Origin: Rhodothermales bacterium
Lineage (GTDB): Bacteria; Bacteroidota; Rhodothermia; Rhodothermales; Bin80
DNA: 64,000 nucleotides
Direction of reading: 5' to 3'
Assembly (NCBI GenBank): GCA_965262785.1
Contig: OZ253559.1
Coordinates: forward strand, 2,158,597-2,222,596
Shown here piece after piece: positions 8,231 to 23,169 of the stretch (its first letter is position 1; every line of letters starts with the position of its first letter). The translations under genes were made by a program, and so were the position numbers. The notes under the pieces were generated by a model, which was given only the letters and a program-made list of their open reading frames with translations, had not been told where the DNA came from and did no database searches.

Positions 8231-10558
8231 ATGGCGCCTGTTAGCTCCATACCTCTGCATGAAACAGCGCGGTCGCGGTATCTCAACTATGCACTATCTG
8301 TCATCACCAGCCGGGCGCTGCCTGACATCAGGGACGGGCTGAAGCCCGTTCAACGACGGATCCTGTACACCATGTTCGCGAGTCTGCGGCTGTTTCCAGA
8401 CGCGCGGTATCGCAAGAGCGCCACCATCGTGGGCGACGCCATGGGCAAGTACCATCCCCACGGCGATTCGGCAATCTACGATGCTATGGCACGCATGGCC
8501 CAGGACTTTTCCCTTCGCGATCCTCTGGTAGATGGTCATGGCAACTTCGGGTCGGTAGACGGGGACCGCCCGGCGGCTATGCGATATACGGAAGCCAAGC
8601 TGCGCCCACTGGCGATGGAGATGCTGCAGGAATTGCGGCAAGCCACTGTACCCTTCCGGCCCAACTTTGACGGCACGCTTTCCGAGCCGGTAGTCCTGCC
8701 TTCCAAAGTGCCCAACCTCCTTGTTAACGGCGCAACCGGGATTGCCGTCGGAATGGCTACTAATATTCCACCACACAACCTGGGTGAGGTGATCAGCGCT
8801 GCCATGTACATGGTTGACGGAAAGCTCAAGTCTGGGGGCGGCGAGTGGCCCAGTGTGAGAATCCGAACCCTGGTCAAACGCTTCATCAAGGGTCCGGACT
8901 TTCCAACAGGAGGGCGCATCCTCAACACGGAGGACGAACTGGTAGCGATTTACACGAAGGGAGAAGGGCCAATCAGCCTCCGGGGCGAGTACCGAATGGA
9001 GGGCAAGAGTCGCGTCACTATCAACTCGATTCCGTACGCGATCAACAAAGGTGATCTCGTAGAAAAAATTGCAGAGAACATCGCGTCGGAAAAGGTGCCG
9101 CAGATCACTGATGTACGAGACGAGTCGACCAGCGATGTCCGCATTGTTTTGGAGCTCAAGCGGGGGGCCAGCGCAGACGCCGCACTCGGATACCTTTTCA
9201 GGCGCACGCAACTGGGCACGCGGTTTCATGTGAACCTCACTGCGCTTGTGCCGACCGAGAATGAACAGATAAGCGCGCCACGGAAGTTCGACCTGTGGAC
9301 GGCGCTAAGGCTATTCTTGGATTTCCGGCTGGACGTGGTCACGCGCAGGCTTCGTCACGAGTTGGAACAGCTTGAAAAGCGGATTCACATTCTAGAGGGA
9401 TTCGAAGTAGTCTTCGACGCATTGGATGAGGCAATCAAGATCATACGATCCTCAAGGAACCGCGCAGACGCGGGACAGCGCCTCCGTCATCGGTTCACGT
9501 TGACGGAGATCCAGTCGGATGCCATCTTGGATACGCGGCTATACAAGCTGTCGCAGATGGAAATTGTTGCCATTCGGGAGGAGCTGAAGGCCAAGCGGAA
9601 GCGTGTGGCTGAGATCGTAGCCCTTCTGGCGGACGAGCATGCCCGGTGGCGCATTGTTCGCGCAGAGCTCAAGGGAATAAAGGACAAGTATGCCACGCCA
9701 CGGCGCACCACTATAGGCGGGCCAGATGAAGACACGTACAGCTACTCGGAAGCGGATTTCATAGTAGACGAGTCGACCATCATCGTGGTAACGCGCGATG
9801 GCTGGGTCAAGCGGCAACGCTCGTACACCAATATAGGCAGTATTCGAATTCGCGAAGGGGACCAAATCGGCTGGATCGTGACGAGTCGGACGCGCAAGAC
9901 GGTAACTTTCTGGACAAACTTTGGTCGTGCTTACACCGCGCGTGTCAATACGATTCCGATGTCGTCGGGATACGGCATCCCGATGCAGAAGCTGTTCGAC
10001 TTTACAGACAGGGAGCGAGTAGTCGGAGTGGCGTCAAATTACATTAAAGCATTGCCGACGGTTACTTTCGGCAAAGAGCAGCAGCCAGTTGAGGAGAGCG
10101 GCGCTGGTCCGATCGGATATGTGCTGGCGTTTTCACGTGCGGGCTTCTGCATAAGACTTGGGCTGGATGCCTTTGCGGAGCCCTCAACCAAGTCTGGCCG
10201 GTACTACATGCGCGTCCCAGACGGGGACGAGGTCCTAGGCGCTTGGCCGGTCGGCGGCAAAGAATATGCGTGCCTCGCGTCCCATAACGGAAGGGGGCTT
10301 GCATTTGCCGTCTCAGATGTGCCGCTACGCAAGAGTGCCGGCAGGGGTGTACAATCTATTAAGCTGGACGATGGCGACTTTGTGTTCGGCGTGACCGTTA
10401 GCAAGAAAAAATCCGAAGGCTTGGTCGTCAAGACCAAGCGCGGCCGCATGGTGACTATTCGGGCAACGAAGTCGTATCACGGTCGCCGGGCCGCGAAGGG
10501 ACGCGCGATCATAAATAGCGGCAGCCTTGCCCAAGTTGTTGAAACTCCGTTGGAGTAG
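8231..10558 (+). CDS. parC: Type IIA topoisomerase subunit A, ParC-like (topoisomerase IV subunit A)
   Basis: GyrA/ParC N-terminal motifs ([26 protein letters not shown], catalytic AAMRYTE). 775 aa, with no GyrA-box (QRRGGKG) in the C-terminal beta-pinwheel. Confidence 0.75.
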
Positions 10559-10580
10559 TGCCACCAGCAACGCGTACCGC

Positions 10581-12518
10581 ATGGACTCATCCAATACATA
10601 TACCGGCAAGGACATTCAGGTCTTGGAAGGCCTTGCACCGGTGCGCAAGCGTCCTGGAATGTACATCGGTGGTACTGGGAAGCCAGGGCTTCATCACCTG
10701 CTGTGGGAGCTGGTTGACAATGGAGTGGACGAGGCCACCAATGGCTATGCTTCGCAAATTGACGTGACTCTGCACAGCAATGGTAGAAGTGTTACGGTAA
10801 GTGACAACGGCCGCGGCATTCCAGTAGATAGTCATCCCACCAAGAAGGTGTCGGCGCTCCAGGTCATTCTCACCACTCTGCATTCAGGCGGAAAGTTTGA
10901 CGGAATGCAGTATAAGACGGCCGGCGGTCTTCACGGCGTAGGGGCTTCGGTGGTTAATGCGCTCTCGGAGCGACTGATAGCGACCATCAAGCGTGATGGA
11001 AAGATGTACGAGCAGCGTTACAAGCGCGGCAAGCCGACCACCAAACTCAAAGTCATCAAGGACTCCGTGCGTGGAACCGGTACGACCATATACTTCGAAC
11101 CGGACGCGGACATTTTCGAGTCAGTTGCCTTCGATGCGGCGTGGATTGCCGAGCAGCTGGAGATCAAGACTTACCTCAACCGCGACCTGCGCATCACCTT
11201 CAATGATCAAGTTAGCAACACGAGCCATGAGTACTTCCACGAGGGAGGTGTAGTCGAGTATCTGACCCACCTGATCAATTTGGCCGGTGCTACCCCGGTT
11301 CATTCGGACATTTTCCGCGTGATTCAGGAAGAGGTGGAGGACGGGGCGCGCCTCGAAATAGCCCTTCAGTGGACCGAGGCGCCTACCGAAACCGTCAAAT
11401 CGTTTGTCAATGGCATTCCGACACGAAGTGGGGGGACACATGAGCAGGGGTTTCGGGATGCGGTTCGTATGGCCGTGCGCGCCTTTATGGAGACGCACAA
11501 CCTCTTGCCGCGCAGCCTGAATGTGACCAGTGACGACATCCGAGAGGGGATTTTTGCCGTTGTCAACATGTTTATGGAGGACCCGCAGTTTCAGGGTCAG
11601 ACCAAGGAAAAGCTCAACAACCCGTCCGCGCGCTCGCTATTGGTCAGTGCAGTACGTCTGGCGCTAGAGCAGTTTCTGAATGCACACCCGACTGCCAGTG
11701 ACACCATTGCGGCGCGCGTCATTCAGTCTGCCAAGGCGCGCCAAGCCAGCCGCTCGGCGGAGCTTTTGGTTCGGAAAAAGTCAAAGGCACGCCGCCGCCT
11801 GAATTTACCTGGGAAGTTGGCGGACTGCTCTTCTACGGACCCGGCCGAGGGCGAGCTCTTCATCGTGGAAGGTGACTCGGCCGGTGGTTCGGCCAAGCAG
11901 GGACGTGATCGAAAATTTCAGGCGGTCCTGCCGCTTCGCGGCAAGGTCCTAAATGCGGAGCAGGCATCGCTGAAGCGAGTCTTGGCCAACAACGAGCTGT
12001 CTAATGTCACGCAGGCCCTTGGATGTGGGCTCGGTGACCGGCTGGACTTGGAGCAGCTTAGGTATCACAAGGTCATCCTGCTCATGGACGCAGATTCCGA
12101 TGGCCACCACATTGCAACCCTTTTACTGACTTTTCTATATCGGCATATGCGCCCGCTCATTGATGCCGGGCACGTATTCGTGGCAGAGCCACCACTGTAT
12201 CGCCTGGATGCAGGGAAAGAGACCTACTGGGCCTTGGACGATGCCGATAAGGCGCGCATCACTCGTCGCCTCAAGAGGAAGCGCCCCAACATTAGAATTG
12301 AAGTGCAACGGTTTAAGGGATTGGGAGAGATGATGCCTGCAACGCTCAGGGACACTACGCTTGACCCGGCCAAGCGGCGGCTCCTGCGTGTGGAGATACC
12401 CGCCGGAGAGAGGGTCGAAACCGACAATACGATTGCCGGCCTGATGGGGAAAGATGCGTCTATCCGGTACAAGTTCATTATGGAAAACGCTGCGACAATT
12501 GAGGACTTGGACGTATAG
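10581..12518 (+). CDS. parE: Type IIA topoisomerase subunit B, ParE-like
   Basis: GHKL ATPase (VDNGVDEA, GLHGVG), Toprim (EGDSAGG, PLRGK, DADSDGHHI), and tail (QRFKGLGEM). I take the start as ATG 10581 (MDSSNTY); the ORF track's 10527 overlaps parC. Confidence 0.8.
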   Translation: MDSSNTYTGKDIQVLEGLAPVRKRPGMYIGGTGKPGLHHLLWELVDNGVDEATNGYASQIDVTLHSNGRSVTVSDNGRGIPVDSHPTKKVSALQVILTTLHSGGKFDGMQYKTAGGLHGVGASVVNALSERLIATIKRDGKMYEQRYKRGKPTTKLKVIKDSVRGTGTTIYFEPDADIFESVAFDAAWIAEQLEIKTYLNRDLRITFNDQVSNTSHEYFHEGGVVEYLTHLINLAGATPVHSDIFRVIQEEVEDGARLEIALQWTEAPTETVKSFVNGIPTRSGGTHEQGFRDAVRMAVRAFMETHNLLPRSLNVTSDDIREGIFAVVNMFMEDPQFQGQTKEKLNNPSARSLLVSAVRLALEQFLNAHPTASDTIAARVIQSAKARQASRSAELLVRKKSKARRRLNLPGKLADCSSTDPAEGELFIVEGDSAGGSAKQGRDRKFQAVLPLRGKVLNAEQASLKRVLANNELSNVTQALGCGLGDRLDLEQLRYHKVILLMDADSDGHHIATLLLTFLYRHMRPLIDAGHVFVAEPPLYRLDAGKETYWALDDADKARITRRLKRKRPNIRIEVQRFKGLGEMMPATLRDTTLDPAKRRLLRVEIPAGERVETDNTIAGLMGKDASIRYKFIMENAATIEDLDV

Positions 12519-12623: not shown

Positions 12624-12664
12624 CAAGTTTACCGTGCGCCTTACCACGGCGCACGGTAAACTTG
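12624..12664 (+). terminator. Perfect 17-bp stem with a 7-nt loop, 105 nt downstream of the parE stop; candidate terminator lacking a U-tract
   Basis: CAAGTTTACCGTGCGCC-ttaccac-GGCGCACGGTAAACTTG. The arms are exact reverse complements. Confidence 0.45.
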
Positions 12665-12670
12665 GGCTAA

Positions 12671-14467
12671 CCCGCATCGCTCACCAAGCTCTTGAATCGC
12701 CAAAGTTCGAGGCGTCCGTAGCCAATGGGTCATGGTCTGGGCATGTGAATGCTGATTCCAGCCTTCTGGGGCATTTAGTTGGCGGCAGTAAGCGCTGTTT
12801 TGGGCGCGCTTCGAGCGGGAATCAGCCCTTTTGTTCGTGCACCGGTGCTTCTTGGATACACGTATCCAGCAACCACCATGTGGAGTCTGCCAATTTCTGG
12901 GACAAGTCGGATCAGGAAGTGCCTATGAAGGTGAGGCGCGCGCGCCGACCGTGGTGGCGTGCACAGTGCCGCGCAGGTTGCTTAGTACGCGCGCGAACAG
13001 TTGCTGCCACGGATACGCCTTGGGAAAGAACAAGCGGACTCGGCGCACGCTTACCACGACCAGTGCGGCGATCTTGAGCAACCGCACTCGGATGGTACCG
13101 CACTGTGCCTGCGCCATCGAAGTGCCCTGCAAGCCAAAGGTCTTGATGATGGTCATCAGGGTGTTGGCGACCGTAGAGAAGTACAGGCGCAGCTGGTTGC
13201 TCTGCATCATGGACGTAGAGGTGCGGTCAGCGAACAGGGTCTGCTGCTGCTCCTTGAGCCGGTTCTCCATGTCTCCACGCGCACAGTACAAATCCTCGTA
13301 TAGCGTGCGCGCATCGTACGCGTCTTCGCTGAAATTGGTGACCACGAATCGTGCGTTGTAGCCGCGCGGTCCAGGCAGTCATTCCGCCTTGGCTATCACG
13401 CGCCGCGCACAGCTCCAGCTGTCCTTCGTTCGGTACTCGAAGCTGCGGAAGCGCCGCGAAGGCTGCCCGCTGGCCTCGCAGGTGGCCTGACTCTGCTGCA
13501 TAGCCCCCTCAACGATGCGTTGCAGCCGCGCATTGCGCGGCATACCAATGATGTAGTGCAGGCCCTGTGCTTCGCACCATGCCATGATATCATCGCGGCA
13601 GAATCCTGCATCTGCACGAATCCAGATGGGCACCTGTGGCCACCGCGCTCGGATACGCGCTACCACGGGCGCCAACTCCTCTATCGTGCCCGCTGATGCG
13701 TCCATGTTGGAGGGGCGCAGACGAGCGGCCAGCACATGTTTGCCGCTAACGATGTACAGCGGCAGGTAGCAATAGTGGCCATAGTAACCATGAAAGAAGC
13801 GCCCCTCTTGCTGGCCGTGAATCGCGTCATCGGTAGCATCGAGATCCAACACGATGTTCTCTGGCTCCTCGCCCGTTACATCCATGAACAAGTCCGCGAG
13901 CATGGTGTCGATCTTTTCAGGGTCCGCTACGATGCGCTTGTACCTGTGCGATGCGGCCCCTTCTTTTGAGCCGAGCTCCAGTCGGTTCAGTGTGCTGGAA
14001 CTCGCCAGCGGATGTCCCTGGTCGCGTTCCCGTACCCGGTGCACCCCTGTTACATCCTCGCAGCCCACGCCCATGGCCAACACGGGATCGTCCCGCAGGC
14101 GGTCATGGTCGTTCACGTCTTCGTGGCCCAAGCATATCGCGTAGATTCGGTGCCTGAGCATCGCCTCCACGGTATGCTCTACTCTGCCGGGATCACGGTG
14201 GTCGGTGAAGCAGGCGGCCAAGCGGCCTATGACGTCGAACATCCGGTCGGCCTCCCGTAGCAGCAGCGCACCTGCGTCCGAGGACATGGGGCCGCCGTCG
14301 AACTTTCCGACCACTTTACGCCGTCCCAAACCCTCGAAACGAAGCGCTTCAGTATGACAGTCTGTTTTATTCACGCGCAATGCAAAAGATGGTTATAACC
14401 AATTGCATATCAAACACTTACGTGGGATTTGGGTTCCAATTCTTGGCACCCTGGTGAGTTTTCCGGG
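12671..14467 (-). mobile_element. IS1380-family insertion sequence (~1.8 kb)
   Basis: Terminal IRs start with CCCG (left CCCGCATCGCTCACCAAGCTC versus the reverse complement of the right end, CCCGGAAAACTCACCAGGGTG; 14/21 match). A 4-bp direct repeat CTAA flanks the element (12667-12670 and 14468-14471). It contains the IS1380-type transposase. Confidence 0.55.
12923..14380 (-). pseudogene. IS1380-family DDE transposase interrupted by one in-frame TGA (13379-13381)
   Basis: The 333-aa ORF (FEGLGRRKV..FDGG..SSDAG.LLLRE, FFHGYYGHYCYLPLY) and the 140-aa ORF (YCARGDMENRLKEQ, LLKIAALV) are in the same frame and separated only by the TGA. Together they are collinear with full-length family members. 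Confidence 0.8.
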
Positions 14468-15266: not shown

Positions 15267-16394
15267 ATGAAGCGACCTCGACCGTCACCCACCCGTCGCA
15301 TTCAACGAATCCTCTGGTCCGAGTCCATGGGCCGTTGTATGAATCCCGCCTGCCACCAGGATCTCTTCCAAAACGGTGCATACATCGGAGAGTTTGCACA
15401 CATTATACCGCACGCCAATGGCGGCGACGTGACATCGAATAACCTGATTGTCCTCTGTTGCAATTGCCACACCGACATTGATTCCGAAGCCGGGCGAACC
15501 CAAGCGATAATTCGCATGCTTCGAAACTGGAAGTCCGAGAGAAATAGGGACATCCGTGCTAGGTTCTCCCAGCAAATTGAGACGTTTGTTGATCTTAGAC
15601 AAGCCGTACTGCCTGCTCTACGACGCAATCGCGCCATCTTCAAGAGCTATGGTCCGCAACATTCGCGGGATGACGAACAGTTACATCCGCTATGGTTGAC
15701 ATTTGAGCCCGAGCTGATTGCGAACAACGAGAAGCTCGTCTTGTTATTCGAGAGGAATCGCGATCTATTTCATCCAGAGAACGCCAACGTTGTAGATCAA
15801 TTCTCTGCTCACGCAAGAGAATTTGCCCAAACCAGAGGTAAGGCCGGTTTTGTCCGTGTCAATCTGTTCCCCGACAAGCTGCATTCGATTTTTGGCCTCA
15901 CCGCTGTGCGGTCATCGCCTCCTTCTAATCTCTCAGCTCTTCAGAATCTTGTGTCCAATCTGATTTCAACAGGGCGATTCATTGCATTGGAGCTAGTGCC
16001 CGATCCAATTCTCACATATCGCCATGGCAAGGATATAGTTGAGTTGCACCTTGCAGATCGCCCGAGAATTCTCCAAATCTACTGGGCTAATAGGTTCTAT
16101 CACCCTCAGACTACCGATCTCCGGCTTAGACAGCTAGTGTTCTTTCTGGGGTGGCTGTACCGGAATGGGGTCGAGTTCGCGTTCCGTGACTACCGCAAGC
16201 TGACCGAAATCAAGATAGCCGACAAGCACCATGCTTTATTAGGCTATAAATACTGCCTGTCGTTGGCCGATCTCCACGACCAACTGACTCCAGACGTCGA
16301 TGTTGTCATCAACCTCCACCACTGGGGCGGCGGTCGGGCTAGCGCTGCCGTTTACCCAAGTTTTCCCCTTGACATTCTGATTTATGCCGCATAG
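15267..16394 (+). pseudogene. HNH endonuclease-domain protein gene whose 3' end is displaced by an IS insertion (ancestral ORF = 15267..16344 joined to 18978..19072, 390 aa)
   Basis: N-terminal HNH motif (C..PAC ... EFAHIIPHANGG ... NLIVLCCNCH). About 300 aa of unassigned C-terminal sequence follow. The last 16 codons before the stop at 16394 are read from the IS terminal repeat. Confidence 0.75.
16345..16362 (+). repeat. Left terminal inverted repeat of the Tn5-like IS
   Basis: Exact reverse complement of 18952-18969. Begins CTG, as Tn5 ends do. Confidence 0.9.
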
Positions 16395-16403
16395 ATTGGC
16401 GGC

Positions 16404-18686
16404 ATGTTCCAGCAGAACCAGATTCTTCGTACGCTGAGCGAGGCGCAATCCCAGGCGCGTCTGGACGGCATCTTGGCTGATGAGGGTCTGAAGAACCGTG
16501 CCGCCATCGCCCGGCGTGTGTGTGCGGCATTCGATTTTTTCGACGCACGCGGGCAGTCGCAAGTAGCCAGTTGCGCCAAGGCGCTCTCGAAGCTGTCCGA
16601 CCGCGGCTGTATAGCACTGCCGGCGCCGATGAACGACCACGCTGCCGGCGCGTCCCCCCGGCTGCTGAAGGAGGGCGTGCCCATGCCGAGTGCCCTTCCT
16701 CGCTCCGTCCGCGAAGTGGATGACCTGTCGCTGATCGTGGTCACGGACGACGACCAGCGCGCCGTATGGAACACCCTATTGGACCAGGAACATCCGCGGG
16801 GCACGACGACGTTCTTCGGCGCGCAGGTGCGCTACCTGGTGCATAGCGCGCAGGGCTATCTGGGCGTGCTGGGCTTTTCGGCCTCGGCCCTGCGTCTGGC
16901 CGCACGGGAGCGATGGATGGCCTGGAGCGATGCGCAGCGCCAGGCCCACCTGCATCATGTGGTGTGTTTGAGCCGCTTTTTGATCCGGGGACCCTGCACG
17001 CACCTGGCGAGCCATGTCCTGGGCCTTGCGCTCAGGCAGCTGCCCGATGATTTTGAAGAGCGTTACAGGTACCGCCCTTGGGTGGTGGAGACCTATGTGG
17101 ATCCGAACTGGAAGGGTACATGCTTCCAGGCGGCAAACTTTCTGCACATTGGTTATACTGCCGGCGGCAAACGACAGTCCGACGATGAACCCGAGCCGCC
17201 CAAGGCGCTGTATGTGTACGAACTGGACCGCGGGTGGCGCCAGGCACTCGGCGTGCCGGCGGTGGAGCTCCATCCTGTGAGAGCACCCCACGAGGCGTTG
17301 GACCGTGACCAATGGGCGGAAGCCGAGTTCGGGGACGCTCCACTGGGCAATCGGCTGCGCTCCACGCGCCTGGTACGGAGTGCGTCGATGCTGGCTTCGG
17401 TGATGGGCCAGTCCATTACGGGCAATACGGACTACGATCGTGCGGCGGTCAAGGCGCATTACCGGTTGCTGGAGAGCGACCCGGCGTCCAAGGTCACTCC
17501 GGAAAACATATTGGCGCCGCATCGTGCGCGCACGATCGAGCGCATGCGCAGCCAGAAGGTGGTGCTCTGCATCCAGGATGGCAGCCGGCTGCGCTATGCC
17601 ACGCGTCCGGCCTGCACGGATCTGCAGGTCACCGGCCGCAACCAGACCACGGCGCAAACGCGTGGGATGCATGTACATGCGACGCTGGCGACCACCTCCG
17701 ATGGTCTGCCGCTGGGCGTGTTGCGCTGCAGCTACCGGGATCCTTCGCACGGTCCCCTGAAGCCGAAGGCCCAACGATGGCTGGACGCCTACCTGGACAT
17801 CTGTGCGGCGGCCGATCAGATCTCCCGCAAGATTCGCGTGATCTGCGTTATGGACCGGGAGGGCGACAGTTTTGCGCTCTTTGACGCCCAGCGTCGTCAG
17901 GGCCGCGTGGAGATGCTGGTCAGGGCGCGGATAGATCGCCGGCTGGCCAACGGCAGGAAGCTGTTTGAGACCCTCGCGGGCGGCCCGGCGGCCGGCAGCG
18001 TGCGGATCGAGATCAAGAAAGTCACCGCACGCCCGAAGTCACGGGGCAAGCCCGCACGCCCCGGGCGCAGCTATCGCATAGCGGACGCCGAGGTGCGGTT
18101 CCACCGGGTGACGCTGCCGGCCACGACCCAGGAGGCAGATCCGGTGACGATGTACGGGGTTCACATCCGGGAGCAGGCCCCGCCGGAAGGCGAAGAGGCC
18201 ATAGAATGGTATCTGCTTACCAGTGTGGCGGTGCACACGCTGGAGGAGGCCCTGCAGGTGCTGGACCACTACGTGAAGCGGTGGCGCGTTGAGGACTTCT
18301 TCCGGGTGCTTAAGAGCGGCTGCAAGGTGGAGCGTCTGGCGCTGCGCACGGCGCTGCGTCTGGAGCGGGCGATCGCGATCTACTGCGTTATTGCCTGGCG
18401 CCTGATGGTGCTGACGCTATTGGGGCGAACCGTGCCAGAGTTGGACTCGGAGGTCTTCTTCACGGAGTTGGAGCTTCGTTTTTTGACGAGCTATGCCAGC
18501 CGTGTGAAGCTGCCTCGGCCCGGCACGCTGCAAGAGGCCATCCTGCTGCTGGCGGTACTCGGGGGGTACCAGAATCGCACTCGCGACGGGCCGCCCGGTC
18601 ACCAGATCATGTGGCGCGGGCTGGAACGATTGGCGCTGGCCACACTGGGATACGAGCTGGGATACGAGGTCCGTGACGCTGAGTAA
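16404..18686 (+). CDS. Tn5-like DDE transposase fused to a ~300-aa N-terminal DUF4338/DruA-like domain
   Basis: C-terminal two-thirds: Tn5-type DNA-binding region (LGN.RL..RLVRSA..LA), DDE residues in IQDGS / MDREGD / YVKRWRVEDFFRVLKSGCKVE. N-terminal third: FGAQVRYLV ... RPWVVETYVDPNWKGTCFQAANF, which I recall as DUF4338-type. Confidence 0.8.
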   Translation: MFQQNQILRTLSEAQSQARLDGILADEGLKNRAAIARRVCAAFDFFDARGQSQVASCAKALSKLSDRGCIALPAPMNDHAAGASPRLLKEGVPMPSALPRSVREVDDLSLIVVTDDDQRAVWNTLLDQEHPRGTTTFFGAQVRYLVHSAQGYLGVLGFSASALRLAARERWMAWSDAQRQAHLHHVVCLSRFLIRGPCTHLASHVLGLALRQLPDDFEERYRYRPWVVETYVDPNWKGTCFQAANFLHIGYTAGGKRQSDDEPEPPKALYVYELDRGWRQALGVPAVELHPVRAPHEALDRDQWAEAEFGDAPLGNRLRSTRLVRSASMLASVMGQSITGNTDYDRAAVKAHYRLLESDPASKVTPENILAPHRARTIERMRSQKVVLCIQDGSRLRYATRPACTDLQVTGRNQTTAQTRGMHVHATLATTSDGLPLGVLRCSYRDPSHGPLKPKAQRWLDAYLDICAAADQISRKIRVICVMDREGDSFALFDAQRRQGRVEMLVRARIDRRLANGRKLFETLAGGPAAGSVRIEIKKVTARPKSRGKPARPGRSYRIADAEVRFHRVTLPATTQEADPVTMYGVHIREQAPPEGEEAIEWYLLTSVAVHTLEEALQVLDHYVKRWRVEDFFRVLKSGCKVERLALRTALRLERAIAIYCVIAWRLMVLTLLGRTVPELDSEVFFTELELRFLTSYASRVKLPRPGTLQEAILLLAVLGGYQNRTRDGPPGHQIMWRGLERLALATLGYELGYEVRDAE

Positions 18687-18951
18687 GGGCGGCACTGCGC
18701 TGCGATAACCCGTGGACTGTGATCCTGTCACAAGGCAGGATCCCTATACCCTGCCGGGGCTGTATGTCCACGGTAAGCAAGGCCTCCGCCCGCAAAGCAG
18801 GCGTAGACCGCGTTGAGCTGAACGAAGCGTCCCTGCACGACCAAGCCTTGAGTCCACAGCCAAGACCCCTGTGCCACATGGACACACCCCGTGTCGCTCG
18901 GCAACGACTGGACATGCTTCTGATACCCTCAAATGCGTAAGTCTGCCAGGT

Positions 18952-18969
18952 AACTTGGGTAAACGGCAG
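18952..18969 (+). repeat. Right terminal inverted repeat of the Tn5-like IS
   Basis: Exact reverse complement of 16345-16362, followed by the target duplication GGCTAGCG. Confidence 0.9.
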
Positions 18970-18977
18970 GGCTAGCG

Positions 18978-19072
18978 AGCAGGCTGTGGACCACGCCTCT
19001 CAGAGAAAGGTAAAGCTAATGAGTCAAAGAGAGTTTTTTGTCTATGCACACAACGAGCTGATATGCCTTTGA
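18978..19072 (+). pseudogene. Displaced 3' end of the HNH-domain gene
   Basis: Removing the IS and one target-repeat copy continues the 15267 frame as ...GGGRAS-EQAVDHASQRKVKLMSQREFFVYAHNELICL-stop. That stop overlaps the next gene's ATG by 10 nt. Confidence 0.7.
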
Positions 19073-19377
19073 TTCTCGACATCCTGGAGCAAGACGGGTC
19101 ATCGCTTTTCAAAGGCTTTACTGGCGTGTATGTCATTGGATCGGTATTGCAGGACGCGGCGCCTAATGACATCGATCTGGTTCTCATCTACGACAATGAA
19201 ACGACGCTTGCGAAGATCAATTCCGCAAGATCAAGGGTTGTTGACACGCTTCTCCGTCGATTCAAGGGCCTCATCACGATTCACCTCACTGTGCTCAGTG
19301 ACGAAGAGCTGTCGGAGACCCAGTTCTTGAAACAAGTACGGCATCACCGAATTCTCGACGGAAGAAGGCGCTTCTGA
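19063..19377 (+). CDS. Minimal nucleotidyltransferase (MNT / Pol-beta superfamily) domain protein, 104 aa
   Basis: G-S-x8-D-I-D motif (VIGSVLQDAAPNDIDLVLIY). Small size is typical of MNT-type proteins. Lower GC than the flanks, by eye. Confidence 0.65.
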   Translation: MPLILDILEQDGSSLFKGFTGVYVIGSVLQDAAPNDIDLVLIYDNETTLAKINSARSRVVDTLLRRFKGLITIHLTVLSDEELSETQFLKQVRHHRILDGRRRF

Positions 19378-20157: not shown

Positions 20158-21240
20158 CTACTTCGCTCCCTTCCTTCTGTTGTCATCCCGGCAAAGCATC
20201 TGGCAATTCTCCACCACCGTCGCGCCACCTTTGGCCCACGGCGTGATATGGTCCGCCTCCATTTGCGACAAATCGAACTCATCACCGCACTTTGCGCACT
20301 TGCCGTTCTGACCCTCGTACACGCGCCGTTTCATCGTATCAGTAAACGCCCGAATGTCCAGATGCGATTCTTCGCGTGTGAGAATGTACGCGTAGATGCC
20401 CGACTGCTTTTTTACGTCATCGTCGGTTAGCAAGCGCTGTGTTTCTTCTTCAACGGCTTCACGGTCAACCGGCTTGTCGCGGTGCTCGTCGTAAAGCAAG
20501 CCCCAGTCCACGCCACGCATCAGTCCCGGACGGGTGTTGAAGCACGACTCCGCCCACTCAATCACCTCTCGAAAATGTTCCCACAGTGGCGTTGCGCTGT
20601 CGTCGTGCTGGTGCCTGCCCATGTAGTCTTCGATGTCGCCGCCGCTTATCCACTTGATCGCCGTCTCCAAATAGTCCTGCCGTATCGCCTTGCCTTTTAG
20701 GTGGCCGTTGCCTATCTGATACGCCGCACCGCCCACCCTGCTGAAATACCGCTTGGCGTCCGATATCCACGGACCCGAAAAGACGGCGTTGCGCAACTCC
20801 TGATCCGTCAGCTTCTCCCCGGCGATGTTGACCGTCCTGAACCACTCCAGCTTCTCGCTGTCCTTCCCTGTGCAAGCGTAGACCATCAACTCGTAGTCCA
20901 GTACGCACCTCTTCTTGTCGGCGGGGAGATTGTGATAATACAAGCCGTCAATCGAAAAATCGCCCTCGACGTATTGCGCAATGGATATCGTCCGCTGCTG
21001 GCCGTCGATAACCTCGTACTCGTCGCCGCCCTTATCCGCCCAATACATGACATTCAGAGGAAAGCCCCTGTTGATCGTGCGGATCACGGCGTCCCGCTGC
21101 TTGTCCTTATACACGAACTCGCGCTGAAACGCGGGGCGGATATCCAACCGTCCGCCATAGCCCACAACGCCGCCCTCGCCGTCATCCTGGTAGTCCGCCA
21201 CCAACTTCCTCACTGTGACACTGCGCAACTCGATTTTCAT
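20158..21240 (-). CDS. DUF262 (ParB/GmrSD-N-like) domain protein with a C-terminal HNH nuclease
   Basis: N-terminal RPAFQREFVY ... VIDGQQRTISI (DGQQR motif). C-terminal HNH: KCAKCGDEF...ADHITPWAKGG...NCQMLCRDDNRRKG. Its start overlaps the methyltransferase stop by ATGA. Confidence 0.8.
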   Translation of the reverse strand: MKIELRSVTVRKLVADYQDDGEGGVVGYGGRLDIRPAFQREFVYKDKQRDAVIRTINRGFPLNVMYWADKGGDEYEVIDGQQRTISIAQYVEGDFSIDGLYYHNLPADKKRCVLDYELMVYACTGKDSEKLEWFRTVNIAGEKLTDQELRNAVFSGPWISDAKRYFSRVGGAAYQIGNGHLKGKAIRQDYLETAIKWISGGDIEDYMGRHQHDDSATPLWEHFREVIEWAESCFNTRPGLMRGVDWGLLYDEHRDKPVDREAVEEETQRLLTDDDVKKQSGIYAYILTREESHLDIRAFTDTMKRRVYEGQNGKCAKCGDEFDLSQMEADHITPWAKGGATVVENCQMLCRDDNRRKGAK

Positions 21241-22214
21241 TGACGAGCCTTCTTGTGGCGAATGACGATACGAGCATACAATTCCTTGCCTTTGATTCTA
21301 AACCTGCTCTGCTTACCGGTTAGTTCCTTAACTAATGAGCGATCCATACCAAGCACTTCGAACTGATCGGGATTGTGTTTGTCCAGAAAACTGATTGGCA
21401 CACCCATCGCGCCATCGCAGTCGGACGGGATGTGCGCCGTCTTGTTCACGTTGATCGCGTCATAATTGTCGTATTTCGGGTATTCTTTCGGCGAATACCT
21501 CTTGTACAGCACCAATTCCTCGTGACGCTTTGCGTGGTCAAGATTGGTGAACCAACATGCATTTCCCAATCTGCCCTTAATGACACCATCTACTGCTTTG
21601 TAAGCACTGCCTTCTTTCTTTGTTTTAACCAACTCCCGCGCATAGTCTTCCGGTACGTCAAAAAGCATATCGCGGCCAGCAGGACCGCGACCAAGCCACA
21701 ATTGATTGTCCCTAATCAGCGGGAATATCTCCCGGTATGTTATCGCGTTCATGTTCCCGATCACCAGAAACTTCTTGTCGTGTTCGACCAGTTGCGCGAT
21801 ATACTCCCTGAACAACGAAAACGGTGGGTTCGTAACCACAATGTCGGCTAATTTCAGCAACGCGACGCATTCTTGACTCCGAAAATCGCCATCTCGTTCA
21901 AGTTGAAACACATGCTCATTGTCACCTGCATACTCAACCCCGACAGCCGACTCCGTGTCATGCTGGCTGAACAGATCGGGCCGCTGATTCCTGTAACAGG
22001 TCGTAATCAGCTTCCCGAGTCCGAGCTTGTCGAAGTTCAGGTGGAAGTAGCGGTAAAAATTGCTGATCGTTGGATCGTCGCAGTTGCAGTAGACGACTTT
22101 ACCGGCAAAGTGATGCCTGTAGTACCGTAGCTCCTTCTCAATGTCCGAAAGCTGGGTGTAGAACTCGTCCTGCTTCGCCCGGTTCGCGGCGTGTAGCGAC
22201 CTGTTACCCGACAT
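21237..22214 (-). CDS. N6-adenine DNA methyltransferase, M.EcoRI-like family
   Basis: Collinear with M.EcoRI as I recall it: DEFYTQ, KVVYCNCDDP, DIVVTNPPFSLFREY, DKKFLVIGN, YPKYDNYDAINVNKT, GVPISFLDKHNPDQFE. I take the start as ATG 22214 (MSGNRSL), which overlaps the transposase 3' end by 11 nt. Confidence 0.85.
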   Translation of the reverse strand: MSGNRSLHAANRAKQDEFYTQLSDIEKELRYYRHHFAGKVVYCNCDDPTISNFYRYFHLNFDKLGLGKLITTCYRNQRPDLFSQHDTESAVGVEYAGDNEHVFQLERDGDFRSQECVALLKLADIVVTNPPFSLFREYIAQLVEHDKKFLVIGNMNAITYREIFPLIRDNQLWLGRGPAGRDMLFDVPEDYARELVKTKKEGSAYKAVDGVIKGRLGNACWFTNLDHAKRHEELVLYKRYSPKEYPKYDNYDAINVNKTAHIPSDCDGAMGVPISFLDKHNPDQFEVLGMDRSLVKELTGKQSRFRIKGKELYARIVIRHKKARQ

Positions 22215-23169
22215 GAGCCATAGCCTCCTGCGGGTTCCCCACCAACTCCCGATACAGCACCCGCCGCCCAACCATGCCTGCCACCACGTGCTGCATCTGG
22301 GCCTCCGTATCCATCGGGCGCATATTGTGTTTGCCTGCGAATTGAGCAATGTAGCGATTCAGGTGCTTCTTGCTGATCTGGTGGTAGGTGCCGTGGTACG
22401 CACGCTTCAGCACAGCCCAGAATGATTCTATGCCGTTCGTATGCGCCATACCGTTGACGTATTCCGAAACACTGTGCTTGACCGCCTCATGCTTCACGCC
22501 TGCCATGCCCTTGTAGGCACGAGCTTCGTCCGTGTACACCATTGAGCCTTCGGCTGCGACATCCGCGACAAAGCCTTGCAATGTGGCCGCATCCGTACGA
22601 TCAACGACCTGCGCCATAATTTTGCCCGTAGCACGATCTCTTGCGCCAACTACCGCTGCCTTAGCCACAGGTCCGCGCCCAAGGTTCGCCTTCTTGTGCG
22701 CGTGCTTGTTCTTCTCCAGCCCGCCGAAGTACGCCTCGTCAACCTCTACCGGACCCTTGAAGGCGGCTGCCAACTCTCCCTTCAATGCCTCGCGGATGCG
22801 CTGTAGCATGAACCAAGCTGTTCTTTGCGTTACACCAACATCGCGGTAGAGCTTCATAGAAGCCACGCCCTTAAGGCTGGTACTTTCAAGATAAATCGCC
22901 AACACCCACTTGCGCAAAGGCAAATTGCTGGATTCTATCGCGGTGCCAGTCTTGACCGAGAAATACTTTCGACAATCACTGCAACGGTACGGCATCGTCC
23001 GGTGCTTGCAGCAGTATACTTTGGTACTACCACAACGCAGACAAAACTTCTCTCCGTCCGGCCAAACTACTCCTTCAAACCATTTGCGCGCCGCCGCTTC
23101 ATCCGGTATCATGTCCATCAGTTCGATCAGCGTCATGCCCTCGCGATATGCTTTTCCCGGTTCAGCCAT
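22204..23169 (-). CDS. IS1595-family transposase (N-terminal zinc ribbon plus ISXO2-like DDE domain)
   Basis: CLRCGS...YRCSDCRKYFS zinc ribbon, DEAYFGG, YTDEARAY, NGIESFWAVLKR. 321 aa, as expected for the family. Confidence 0.85.
   Translation of the reverse strand: MAEPGKAYREGMTLIELMDMIPDEAAARKWFEGVVWPDGEKFCLRCGSTKVYCCKHRTMPYRCSDCRKYFSVKTGTAIESSNLPLRKWVLAIYLESTSLKGVASMKLYRDVGVTQRTAWFMLQRIREALKGELAAAFKGPVEVDEAYFGGLEKNKHAHKKANLGRGPVAKAAVVGARDRATGKIMAQVVDRTDAATLQGFVADVAAEGSMVYTDEARAYKGMAGVKHEAVKHSVSEYVNGMAHTNGIESFWAVLKRAYHGTYHQISKKHLNRYIAQFAGKHNMRPMDTEAQMQHVVAGMVGRRVLYRELVGNPQEAMAHVG

What the first reader, a model, noticed from the sequence alone, without database searches (positions are those of the whole stretch)
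16337..18977. Tn5-like IS whose transposase carries a DUF4338/DruA-like N-terminal domain, with perfect 18-bp IRs and a target duplication
The 760-aa transposase is about 290 aa longer than Tn5 Tnp. Its C-terminal part has the Tn5 DNA-binding and DDE signatures (IQDGS, MDREGD, YVKRWRVEDFFRVLKSG).

The extra N-terminal domain (FGAQVRYLV..., RPWVVETYVDPNWKGTCFQAANF) resembles what I recall as DUF4338. That domain defines DruA of the Druantia anti-phage system, and its biochemical role is unknown.

The element is clearly bounded: CTGCCGTTTACCCAAGTT and its exact complement, flanked by GGCTAGCG, which becomes 9 bp if the shared G is counted. It has inserted into a candidate defence gene. A DruA-type domain fused to a working transposase could help show what that domain does, for example in DNA-end or target recognition.
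Basis: partly seen in the sequence, partly recalled or inferred. Interest (0 to 1): 0.6.

Follow-up and report, generated by a model that had tools for sequence, protein, structure and literature searches.

The report
Tn5-like insertion sequence with Mom/DruA-type GNAT domain
This is an intact jumping gene of the Tn5 type whose transposase carries an extra 300-residue front end related both to the defence protein DruA and to phage Mu's DNA-modifying enzyme Mom; the fusion is common in environmental bacteria but appears unstudied.

Summary
A 2,625-bp element (16345-18969) has perfect 18-bp inverted repeats, is flanked by the direct repeat GGCTAGCG, and encodes one 760-aa ORF.

- **Transposase core:** residues 303-745 align with Tn5 transposase. 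The catalytic residues D392, D484 and E630 and the YREK motif are intact.
- **N-terminal domain:** residues ~100-290 pass Pfam's DruA (DUF4338) threshold.
- **Target duplication:** it is 8 bp, not 9. In 51 complete copies from five genomes the target is N-S-C-W-W-G-S-N, mostly CTAG-centred.
- **Not rare:** more than 1,000 proteins share the architecture. Near-identical multicopy bursts show that it transposes. The same domain is also fused to ISAs1-family transposases.
- **New lead:** the domain is a GNAT whose closest structural and profile relative is phage Mu Mom, a tRNA-dependent DNA-adenine modifying enzyme. Mom's H58, R111 and S124 have invariant counterparts, but R151 and Mom's essential helix-turn-helix-like insertion are missing.
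- **Selection:** the domain is under purifying selection as strong as that on the Tn5 core.

What the domain does in transposition is unresolved. The link to Druantia is homology of one domain only.

The parts
16337..16344 (.). Left copy of the 8-bp target-site duplication GGCTAGCG
   Evidence: Identical to 18970-18977. It fits the family target N-S-C-W-W-G-S-N seen at 43 unique insertion sites.
16345..16362 (+). Left terminal inverted repeat (IRL), CTGCCGTTTACCCAAGTT
   Evidence: Exact reverse complement of 18952-18969, with 0.05 matches expected by chance. The CTGCC start and the ACCCA core are conserved across subfamilies. It largely fits the IS50-subgroup end consensus CW------Y---CA (PMC2266710); consensus position 16 (A) is G here.
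16369..16397 (+). Promoter-like site TTGACA-17-TAGATT inside the left end
   Evidence: 10 of 12 matches. The TTGACA/TGGACA box and the fixed 59-60-bp leader are conserved in other subfamilies. The second hexamer ends 6 nt before the ATG, so a leaderless mRNA is possible; this is inference.
16404..18686 (+). Transposase gene, 760 aa, a single ORF including the stop codon
16404..16703 (+). Residues 1-100: N-terminal four-helix region plus linker, fold unassigned
   Evidence: AF2 models give pLDDT 83-87. Foldseek against PDB finds nothing significant (best E about 3; weak winged-helix regulators). dN/dS is 0.11-0.32. C40, G50 and C57 are invariant.
16704..17273 (+). Residues ~101-290: Mom/DruA-type GNAT domain
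   Evidence: - Pfam DruA, E 4e-25.
- The top PDB fold match is phage Mu Mom, 8bv8. The top viral fold matches are Mom-like phage GNATs.
- hhalign against the Mom family gives 91.4% probability, E 8.9e-7, over 189 columns.
- H130, R191 and S203 are invariant and align to Mom H58, R111 and S124.
17310..17480 (+). Residues 303-359: Tn5-type end-binding domain (Tnp_DNA_bind)
   Evidence: Pfam PF14706, E 2e-7. Aligns to the Tn5 transposase N-terminus from residue 11.
17481..18386 (+). Residues 360-661: DDE catalytic core. D392 is at 17577-17579, D484 at 17853-17855 and E630 at 18291-18293, within the YREK motif Y623/R626/E630/K637.
   Evidence: Alignment to Tn5 transposase, E 5e-37. Motif positions. 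NCBIfam NF033590 IS4 family transposase, 294 bits against a cutoff of 160.
18387..18641 (+). Residues 662-746: Tn5 dimerisation domain
   Evidence: Pfam PF02281, E 2.5e-12.
18645..18668 (+). 12-bp tandem duplication CTGGGATACGAG x2 (LGYE-LGYE) near the ORF's 3' end
   Evidence: repeat family D18. It plausibly accounts for 760 aa and 2,625 bp here, against 756 aa and 2,613 bp in copies L001 and L003.
18687..18951 (+). 3' non-coding tail between the stop codon and IRR
   Evidence: No Rfam family and no tRNA. The stop-to-end tail, including the IR, is 216-283 bp in the Rhodothermales subfamilies. It is only 14-16 bp in Vicinamibacterales relatives, and its sequence is not conserved. It is probably dispensable.
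18952..18969 (-). Right terminal inverted repeat (IRR)
18970..18977 (.). Right copy of the 8-bp target-site duplication GGCTAGCG
15267..16344 (+). 5' part (codons 1 to ~360) of the interrupted host gene, an HNH-domain protein
   Evidence: The restored ORF is 390 aa. Pfam HNH/HNH_5 at residues 40-71. PADLOC gives weak hits to HNH effector models only.
18978..19072 (+). 3' part of the interrupted host gene. Its stop (19070-19072) overlaps the start of the next ORF at 19063.

Best explanation
The feature is an intact insertion sequence of the IS4 family, closest to the IS50/Tn5 subgroup, that inserted into the 3' end of an HNH-domain gene.

**Shown**
- It has perfect 18-bp ends beginning CTG and an 8-bp target duplication.
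- One gene encodes a 760-aa protein. Its C-terminal 460 aa are a complete Tn5-type transposase: end-binding domain, DDE/YREK catalytic core and dimerisation domain.
- Sister elements are present in many near-identical copies, so this type of protein transposes.
- Insertion is strongly targeted to a palindromic N-S-C-W-W-G-S-N site, usually GCTAG.
- The extra N-terminal 300 aa consist of a small helical region and a GNAT-fold domain. That domain belongs to Pfam DruA/DUF4338 and is specifically related to phage Mu Mom. It is under purifying selection and is also fused to ISAs1-family transposases.

**Inferred by homology with Tn5**
- Two transposase molecules bind the two ends and cut the element out through DNA hairpins.
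- They insert it with an 8-bp stagger. Each monomer reads one half of the symmetric target, as proposed for Tn10's GCTNAGC.

**Inferred, weakest step**
- The GNAT domain sits directly before the end-binding domain and keeps counterparts of Mom's His, Arg and Ser. Both it and Mom lack the usual CoA-binding glycine loop.
- It therefore most likely works on or next to nucleic acid within the transposition complex. It may be an acyl- or aminoacyl-transferase that marks DNA, or it may read the state of DNA. It is unlikely to be an ordinary metabolic acetyltransferase.
For: **Boundaries and insertion**
-.
- Homology to seven copies in MAG OZ244626.1 runs from a few bases outside IRL in five copies (from 16377, inside the element, in L002) and, in the four copies that reach the right end, stops a few bases past IRR; flanks are unrelated.

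**Transposase identity**
- Tn5 transposase alignment covers residues 11-458, E 5e-37.
- DDE and YREK positions.
- NF033590, 294 bits.

**Activity of the architecture**
- 19 copies, all with 761-aa ORFs, at a median 99.9% nucleotide identity in OZ219799/800.
- 13 full-length copies in OZ244975/6.
- 51 complete copies, 38 with exact 8-bp duplications.

**Target**
- Position 3 is C in 42 of 43 sites and position 6 is G in 43 of 43.
- The centre is CTAG in 26, CTTG in 9 and CAAG in 7.

**N-domain**
- Pfam DruA.
- AF2 model, pLDDT 86.9.
- Mom 8bv8 is the top PDB fold hit, E 1.5e-6, TM 0.62.
- Mom-like phage GNATs are the top BFVD hits.
- hhalign against the Mom family gives 91.4% probability.
- 6 of 67 relatives hit Pfam Mom, best E 4.6e-7.
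- H130, R191 and S203 are invariant and align to Mom H58, R111 and S124. R111 and S124 are essential in Mom (PMC13219725).

**Selection**
- dN/dS is 0.14-0.55 for the GNAT region, mostly below 0.3, against 0.11-0.32 for the core.

**Second fusion**
- ISAs1-type proteins carry the same GNAT: 3,814 hits and hhalign E 2e-52.
Against: - No experiment bears on the GNAT domain's activity.
- Mom's essential R151 has no counterpart in the Tn5-type domain.
- Mom's essential helix-turn-helix-like insertion (residues ~175-209) is absent.
- Y59 is replaced by proline, and Y159 is F241 in this copy.
- The Mom relationship is remote. The Pfam Mom hit to this protein is below threshold (E 0.19). The single-sequence hhalign is only local.
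- The symmetric target resembles Tn10's, where the catalytic core is enough. The target preference therefore need not involve the GNAT domain.
- This particular copy has not been shown to move. Its closest relatives differ from it by 3-4.5%, and four of the seven copies in that genome are truncated.
Confidence: 0.65

Rival explanations
1. The GNAT domain is a regulatory or protein-directed module. It would sense a metabolite such as an acyl-CoA or a charged tRNA, or acylate the transposase itself or a host nucleoid protein. Transposition would then be tuned to cell state, without any action on DNA.
For: - Ordinary protein and small-molecule GNATs (HP0935, SpeG, Naa60, AAC(6')-Ib) follow Mom closely in the fold ranking, at E 1.5e-5 to 1e-4.
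- Mom's DNA-associated insertion and R151 are missing.
- Fusion to two different transposase families would also fit a generic regulatory role.
Against: - The canonical CoA-binding Q/RxxGxG/A loop is absent from the sequence, as in Mom (read).
- The nearest relatives by profile and fold are Mom-type enzymes, many fused to endonuclease-like domains in phages.
- The other contexts recorded for this domain family are conflict systems that act on DNA: Druantia DruA, and DndF (PMC10853773).
Confidence: 0.25
2. The GNAT domain has lost catalysis. It serves only as a structural, oligomerisation or extra DNA- or RNA-binding module of the transposase.
For: - Several Mom catalytic or important residues are not kept: R151, Y59, and Y159 in this copy.
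- W122 aligns with Mom's dimerisation residue W48 (alignment read by eye).
- Transposases often gain non-catalytic accessory domains (general knowledge).
Against: Polar residues at Mom's active-site positions (H130, R191, S203) are invariant across 59 sequences down to about 50% identity. R191 and S203 remain nearly invariant in a wider set of 67. This is more than fold maintenance would need.
Confidence: 0.2
3. The long ORF is an artefact, or a chance fusion of a DruA-like defence gene with a neighbouring transposase gene. The element would then be a normal-sized Tn5-like IS carrying a passenger.
For: - Representatives of about 290-300 aa that cover only the N-domain exist in the protein library.
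- One plasmid shows a separate DUF4338 ORF and a separate IS4 transposase ORF.
Against: - That plasmid case is a copy split by an inserted IS91 element, flanked by the two halves of a DUF2235 gene.
- 67 of 74 metagenomic relatives of a 'standalone' protein have continuous ORFs of at least 700 aa.
- More than 100 listed homologues have the full four-domain architecture.
- The leader is a fixed 59-60 bp from the IR to the ATG.
- dN/dS is low across the junction.
Confidence: 0.02

Closest known systems
IS50/Tn5 (IS4 family, IS50 subgroup)
   Same: - The transposase core is collinear with Tn5 transposase residues 11-458, with DDE and YREK intact, the Tn5 end-binding domain and the dimerisation domain.
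- The ends begin CTG and end ...CAAGT, like the Tn5 outside end (recalled from memory). They largely fit the subgroup consensus.
- The direct repeat falls within the subgroup's 8-9 bp range.
   Different: - The element is 2.4-2.6 kb, against 1.35-1.55 kb for the subgroup.
- The transposase is 283 aa longer because of the N-terminal helical and GNAT module.
- The duplication is 8 bp, against Tn5's 9 bp.
- Target preference (SCWWGS) is much stronger than the weak Tn5 consensus.
- No Dam (GATC) control was examined.
IS10/Tn10 target recognition (nGCTnAGCn)
   Same: A symmetric target with GCT/AGC half-sites centred in the duplication (the Tn10 consensus is from established knowledge).
   Different: The duplication is 8 bp with no central spacer base (GCTAGC), against 9 bp. 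The subgroup and transposase length also differ.
Phage Mu Mom (PF25680; PDB 8bv8), a GNAT that uses Gly-tRNA(Gly) to modify adenine in dsDNA
   Same: - It is the best fold match and a profile-profile match over 189 columns.
- Shared motifs are QA[AS]NF..[IV]G, and NLAS aligned to NSES.
- Counterparts exist for H58, R111, S124 and D149.
- Both lack the classical CoA loop.
- Both are carried by a DDE-transposing mobile element.
   Different: - There is no counterpart of the essential R151.
- The essential helix-turn-helix-like insertion is absent.
- Here the domain is fused to a transposase rather than free-standing.
- The hit is below Pfam's Mom threshold for this protein (E 0.19).
- Donor, acceptor and activity are all unknown.
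DruA of type I Druantia (PF14236 / DUF4338)
   Same: The domain passes the Pfam family threshold (88.9 bits against 27). PADLOC DruA models weakly hit 40 of 67 close relatives. The Aravind laboratory calls DUF4338 a GNAT (PMC10853773).
   Different: - Only profile positions 46-179 of 297 are matched.
- PADLOC DruA models do not hit this protein.
- No DruB-E genes were seen among the ORFs scanned around the element.
- The context is a transposase, not a defence operon.
ISAs1-family transposases with an N-terminal DruA-type domain (e.g. WP_216644545.1 of Candidatus Thiodictyon syntrophicum)
   Same: The GNAT domain is the same (hhalign 100%, E 2e-52). It sits N-terminal to a DDE transposase, and the architecture is widespread (3,814 hits).
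   Different: - The transposase family differs (DDE_Tnp_1_assoc plus ISAs1 core).
- There is no N-terminal helical region.
- The proteins are about 443 aa.

Membership tests
IS4 family, IS50 subgroup (De Palmenaer et al. 2008, PMC2266710) | DDE triad with a complete Y-(2)-R-(3)-E-(6)-K motif | tested here: met
   D392, D484 and E630, with Y623, R626 and K637. They align to Tn5 D97, D188, E326 and YREK.
IS4 family, IS50 subgroup (De Palmenaer et al. 2008, PMC2266710) | Terminal inverted repeats with 5'-CT/CW ends and the subgroup consensus CW------Y---CA-A--W- | tested here: met
   In CTGCCGTTTACCCAAGTT, C1, T2, T9, C13 and A14 fit; position 16 is G, not A. The CTGCC start is conserved in all subfamilies.
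IS4 family, IS50 subgroup (De Palmenaer et al. 2008, PMC2266710) | Direct repeat of 8-9 bp | tested here: met
   An 8-bp repeat here, and exact in 38 of 51 other complete copies.
IS4 family, IS50 subgroup (De Palmenaer et al. 2008, PMC2266710) | Typical size 1350-1550 bp with a transposase of about 450-480 aa | tested here: not met
   The element is 2,625 bp with a 760-aa transposase. Relatives are 2,425-2,614 bp.
IS4 family, IS50 subgroup (De Palmenaer et al. 2008, PMC2266710) | A named ISfinder entry or subgroup for this element | not testable with these tools
   ISfinder is not available. NCBIfam NF033590 (an IS4 family transposase model) matches residues 351-750 only.
Pfam DruA / DUF4338 (PF14236) | Score above the family's gathering threshold | tested here: met
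   88.9 bits against 27 for the full protein, and 91.3 bits for residues 1-304 alone. Profile coverage is partial, 46-179 of 297.
Type I Druantia defence system | DruA recognised by system-specific models | tested here: not met
   PADLOC gives no hit at E <= 0.1. Relatives give only weak hits, best 5.6e-7.
Type I Druantia defence system | An operon with druB, druC, druD and the DruE helicase | tested here: not met
   Neighbours are an HNH gene, a small nucleotidyltransferase-like ORF, a Type II restriction-modification pair and other IS transposases. The domain lies inside a transposase ORF bounded by inverted repeats.
Mom family (PF25680) | Score above the Pfam gathering threshold | tested here: not met
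   E 0.19, 11.8 bits against 27.1. 6 of 67 relatives have E <= 0.001, best 4.6e-7.
Mom family (PF25680) | Catalytic and essential residues R111, S124 and R151, and the helix-turn-helix-like insertion 175-209 (PMC13219725) | tested here: inconclusive
   R191 and S203 are invariant counterparts, as is H130 for H58. R151 and the insertion have no counterpart.
Mom family (PF25680) | Gly-tRNA-dependent modification of adenine in dsDNA | not testable with these tools
   This needs biochemistry or modified-base detection.
GNAT superfamily fold | Mixed alpha/beta GNAT core recognised by structure comparison | tested here: met
   The AF2 model has pLDDT 86.9. 157 PDB chains match at E <= 0.001, all 50 listed being GNATs, with probability 1.00.
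GNAT superfamily fold | Canonical acetyl-CoA pyrophosphate loop Q/R-x-x-G-x-G/A after strand 4 | tested here: not met
   The loop after LSRFLI reads RGPCTHLAS here; the family consensus is RPxVxCxNLAS. No glycine motif is present. Mom likewise has DMPRNSES.

The most novel reading that the evidence does not exclude
The N-terminal domain is an active Mom-like transferase tethered to the transposase. It would covalently mark DNA at the element's ends or at the CTAG-type target. The element would then carry its own epigenetic switch, for example to time transposition to replication or to block re-insertion, much as Tn5 and Tn10 exploit host Dam methylation. By homology, Druantia DruA would then be a DNA-marking enzyme, filling the role that the methyltransferase DruM has in type II Druantia.
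Probability: 0.15. Interest if true: 0.85.

Novelty: new variant of a known kind. Interest (0 to 1): 0.55.

Why it matters
**Transposition.** Tn5 is the best-understood bacterial transposase and a major laboratory tool. A large, active and phylogenetically broad group of Tn5-like elements carries an enzyme-like domain in front of the end-binding domain. The same domain was recruited by ISAs1 transposases. This implies an unrecognised layer of transposition control or chemistry.

**Defence.** The biochemical role of DruA in type I Druantia is unknown. These fusions tie the domain family to Mom, the only GNAT known to modify DNA. They also offer a simple genetic read-out, transposition frequency and target choice, for testing what the domain does.

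**Target preference.** The sharp 8-bp CTAG-centred preference is of practical interest for predicting insertion sites.

**Literature.** No paper in the searchable library describes the fusion or links DruA to Mom. The architecture is, however, visible in Pfam annotations, and DUF4338 has been called a GNAT.

Tried and rejected
- **A 9-bp duplication, as in Tn5.** Rejected. Only 14 of 51 copies have the required G. The CWWG palindrome is centred in an 8-bp repeat, not a 9-bp one.
- **An RNA partner for a Mom-like, tRNA-using domain.** The window has no tRNA. The element has no Rfam family; one chance-level hit, E 0.71. The 3' tail is not conserved, and it is nearly absent in Vicinamibacterales relatives.
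- **Sequence search of PDB with the N-domain.** Nothing meaningful; best E 0.19.
- **Global hhalign of the N-domain against a single Mom sequence.** Failed. The local and profile-profile versions were informative.
- **Fold of residues 1-102 alone.** No significant match.
- **Empty-site search.** The restored HNH protein found no relative in metagenome contigs.
- **A bona fide Druantia DruA sequence for direct comparison.** Not obtained. tblastn of plasmids with two DUF4338 queries found only the Thiodictyon IS copies. The papers consulted gave no usable accession.
- **'Standalone' N-domain proteins as a two-gene version of the element.** Rejected as mostly fragments or disrupted copies.
- **Pfam census of all 149 nearest representatives.** It exceeded the size limit and was rerun on 67.

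Full report
**1. The observation**

CTGCCGTTTACCCAAGTT lies at 16345-16362, and its exact reverse complement lies at 18952-18969. Even with three mismatches allowed, these are the only two matches in the 64-kb window. Chance expectation is 0.05, and none of 100 shuffles gave two.

GGCTAGCG sits immediately outside both ends, at 16337-16344 and 18970-18977. The element is 2,625 bp at 64% G+C, against 56-58% in its flanks.

Removing 16345-18977 rejoins a host ORF into a 390-aa HNH-domain protein. Its stop overlaps the start of the next ORF. The insertion is therefore real and lies at about codon 360 of 390.

**2. The gene**

ORF 16404-18686 is a single 760-aa frame. Pfam finds four domains:

| Domain | Residues | Note |
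|---|---|---|
| DruA (PF14236) | 104-231 | E 4e-25; only profile positions 46-179 of 297 |
| Tnp_DNA_bind | 303-359 | |
| DDE_Tnp_1 | 477-663 | |
| Dimer_Tnp_Tn5 | 662-746 | |

- NCBIfam's IS4 model NF033590 scores 294 bits on residues 351-750.
- Residues 303-745 align with Tn5 transposase residues 11-458, E 5e-37.
- The catalytic D392, D484 and E630 and the YREK residues Y623, R626 and K637 are in place.
- A TTGACA-17-TAGATT promoter-like site lies inside the left end and finishes 6 nt before the ATG.
- The 59-60-bp leader and its TTGACA/TGGACA box are conserved in distant subfamilies.

**3. Other copies**

A scan of one genome per species returned 80 loci:

- seven copies at 95-97% protein identity in a Rhodothermales MAG;
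- about 20 copies at 69% in a second Rhodothermales MAG;
- about nine copies at 63% in a third;
- dozens at about 55% in Vicinamibacterales (Acidobacteriota) MAGs;
- further copies in Bryobacterales, Gammaproteobacteria and Bacteroidota.

DNA similarity between the window and most of the closest copies begins and ends within a few bases of the inverted repeats, and the flanks are unrelated.

In 51 copies with both ends, 38 have an exact 8-bp duplication and 43 have at most one mismatch. The 9-bp reading is not supported (14 of 51). The 43 unique sites give a sharp target, N-S-C-W-W-G-S-N. Position 3 is C in 42 of 43 and position 6 is G in 43 of 43. The centre is CTAG in 26, CTTG in 9 and CAAG in 7.

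This target is symmetric about the middle of the 8-bp repeat. It resembles Tn10's GCTnAGC half-sites.

Two genomes show recent bursts. One has 19 copies, all with 761-aa ORFs, at a median 99.9% nucleotide identity. The other has 13 full-length copies. Proteins of this architecture are therefore working transposases.

The window's own copy is intact, but it has not been shown to move.

**4. How common the fusion is**

- The protein search found 1,167 relatives among the scored candidates. All 120 listed carry the DruA domain together with Tn5-type transposase domains; most are about 740-800 aa with all four. Those that carry a name are called only 'IS4 family transposase'.
- The N-domain alone matches 4,703 representatives of 50%-identity clusters at E <= 0.001.
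- Apparent standalone proteins of 290-300 aa are mostly fragments. One plasmid example is a copy split by an IS91 insertion. In addition, 67 of 74 metagenomic relatives of one such protein have continuous ORFs of at least 700 aa.
- dN/dS is 0.11-0.32 for residues 1-100. It is 0.14-0.30 for the GNAT region, with one noisy close pair at 0.55. It is 0.11-0.32 for the Tn5 core. The extra module is therefore maintained by selection.

**5. What the extra domain is**

An AlphaFold2 model of residues 1-304 (pLDDT 86.9) shows a four-helix N-terminal region and a GNAT-type alpha/beta domain.

*Fold comparison*
- Foldseek against the PDB ranks phage Mu Mom (8bv8) first, with E 1.5e-6 and TM 0.62 over all 202 residues. 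Ordinary GNATs follow at E 1.5e-5 or weaker.
- Against predicted viral structures, the top hits are Mom-like phage GNATs. Several are fused to endonuclease-like domains.

*Sequence profiles*
- Pfam's Mom model gives a sub-threshold hit to this protein, E 0.19.
- It gives hits at E <= 0.001 to 6 of 67 close relatives, best 4.6e-7.
- A profile-profile alignment of 211 N-domains against about 115 Mom-family proteins gives 91.4% probability, E 8.9e-7, over 189 columns.

*Residue correspondence.* Mom was recently shown to be a GNAT that uses Gly-tRNA(Gly) to modify adenine in double-stranded DNA. R111, S124 and R151 are essential. H58, Y59, W48 and Y159 are important, and a helix-turn-helix-like insertion is required (PMC13219725). 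In the alignment:

| Mom residue | Counterpart here |
|---|---|
| H58 | H130 (invariant) |
| R111 | R191 (invariant) |
| S124 | S203 (invariant) |
| D149 | D233 |
| Y159 | F241 (Y in the family consensus) |
| R151 | none |
| HTH-like insertion | none |

Neither Mom nor this domain has the classical CoA-binding glycine loop.

*Other points*
- The Aravind laboratory has called DUF4338 a GNAT, as a variable N-terminal domain of DndF (PMC10853773).
- I found no paper linking DruA to Mom, or describing the transposase fusion.
- The N-terminal helical region gave no significant fold match.

**6. Relation to Druantia**

- The domain passes Pfam's DruA threshold. However, PADLOC's DruA models do not hit this protein, and they hit 40 of 67 relatives only weakly.
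- The ORFs scanned around the element include no Druantia genes. Neighbours are the HNH gene, a small nucleotidyltransferase-like ORF, a Type II restriction-modification pair and other IS transposases.
- The element is therefore not part of a Druantia system. It shares one domain family with DruA.

**7. A second transposase family with the same domain**

A Thiodictyon plasmid protein annotated as an ISAs1-family transposase has DruA + DDE_Tnp_1_assoc + DDE_Tnp_1. This architecture has 3,814 relatives, and the top 120 all carry both PF14236 and PF13808. Its GNAT domain is clearly the same one (hhalign E 2e-52). Recruitment by two transposase families argues that the domain does something useful for transposition in general.

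**8. Mechanism**

By homology with Tn5, two transposase molecules should bind the two ends through residues 303-359. They should then cut the element out through hairpins at the CTG/CAG termini and insert it with an 8-bp stagger. This step is inference.

The symmetric target suggests that each monomer reads one half-site, as in Tn10. Whether the GNAT domain contributes to this is untested.

For the GNAT domain I rank three readings:

| Reading | Probability |
|---|---|
| Acts on or reads nucleic acid inside the transposition complex, in a Mom-like way | 0.35-0.4 (active DNA marking itself about 0.15) |
| Protein-directed or metabolite-sensing regulator | about 0.25 |
| Non-catalytic scaffold | about 0.2 |

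None is demonstrated.

**9. Verdict**

- the duplication is 8 bp, not 9;
- the DruA match is partial;
- the element is not Druantia;
- the fusion is not rare.

The element is a new variant of a known kind. It fits the IS50 subgroup in its chemistry, ends and repeat length. It is about 1.1 kb too long for that subgroup because its transposase carries a Mom/DruA-type GNAT module. The Mom connection and the second fusion to ISAs1 transposases are the most useful new leads.

Noticed in passing
window 13379-14380 (- strand): A 333-aa ORF matches DDE_Tnp_1_4 (IS1380-like) over profile positions 4-298 of 435, so it appears truncated. Window 12663-14420 is 84% identical in DNA to a stretch beside an unrelated copy of the GNAT-IS in MAG OZ244148 (L028 6218-7962). 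It is therefore a second mobile element shared by these genomes.
   Followed up: partly
window 20158-22349 (- strand) and 22204-23169 (- strand): - A Type II restriction-modification pair lies here.
- The nuclease is a GmrSD_N/DUF262 + HNH protein (PADLOC REase_II, 440 bits).
- The methyltransferase is EcoRI-like and adenine-specific (Pfam 416 bits; PADLOC MTase_II, 400 bits).
- An IS1595-family transposase follows.
- Together with the HNH gene hit by the IS, this looks like a small defence and mobile-element island.
   Followed up: partly
window 19063-19377 (+ strand): A 104-aa ORF has a weak Polbeta nucleotidyltransferase match (E 0.005). Its ATG overlaps the stop of the restored HNH gene by 10 nt. 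The two may form an operon, which the IS insertion now separates from its promoter-proximal gene.
   Followed up: no
window 8231-12518 (+ strand): Overlapping genes encode a type IIA topoisomerase A subunit (775 aa) followed by a B subunit (663 aa). They lie directly upstream of the IS-rich region. The A-then-B order was noted but not examined.
   Followed up: no
window 18645-18668: A perfect 12-bp tandem duplication (CTGGGATACGAG x2) inside the transposase C-terminus adds LGYE. It plausibly explains why this copy is 2,625 bp and 760 aa, while sister copies L001 and L003 are 2,613-2,614 bp and 756 aa.
   Followed up: partly
L020 (OZ219800.1) and L022 (OZ219799.1): These two copies have swapped flanks. 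L020 has ACCAAGGT on the left and GGCTTGGC on the right; L022 has GGCTTGGC on the left and ACCAAGGT on the right. This is the signature of reciprocal recombination between two IS copies lying on the two replicons of that assembly. L013 and L024 also have unmatched flanks.
   Followed up: no
L043, L045, L047, L049, L052, L053, L080 (Vicinamibacterales MAGs): Several copies have ...GGGCAG just before the left duplication, or CTGCCC just after the right one. These are the ends of another copy. Elements therefore sit back-to-back across a shared GCTAGC-type site. This fits re-insertion into the preferred target that each insertion regenerates.
   Followed up: no
L083 3920-5681 (Thiodictyon plasmid pTs417) and proteins P0390-P0509: The ISAs1-type GNAT fusions have a very uniform length of about 442-444 aa that stops partway through the DDE domain. 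In the plasmid, the next ORF (131 aa) carries the remainder of DDE_Tnp_1. The break may be conserved (frameshifting or read-through) rather than decay.
   Followed up: no
BFVD hits to model m3a4fcf869424: Many of the best viral structural matches to the GNAT domain are long phage proteins annotated as endonuclease-like or homing endonuclease. Mom-type GNAT domains may therefore be fused to nucleases in phages.
   Followed up: no
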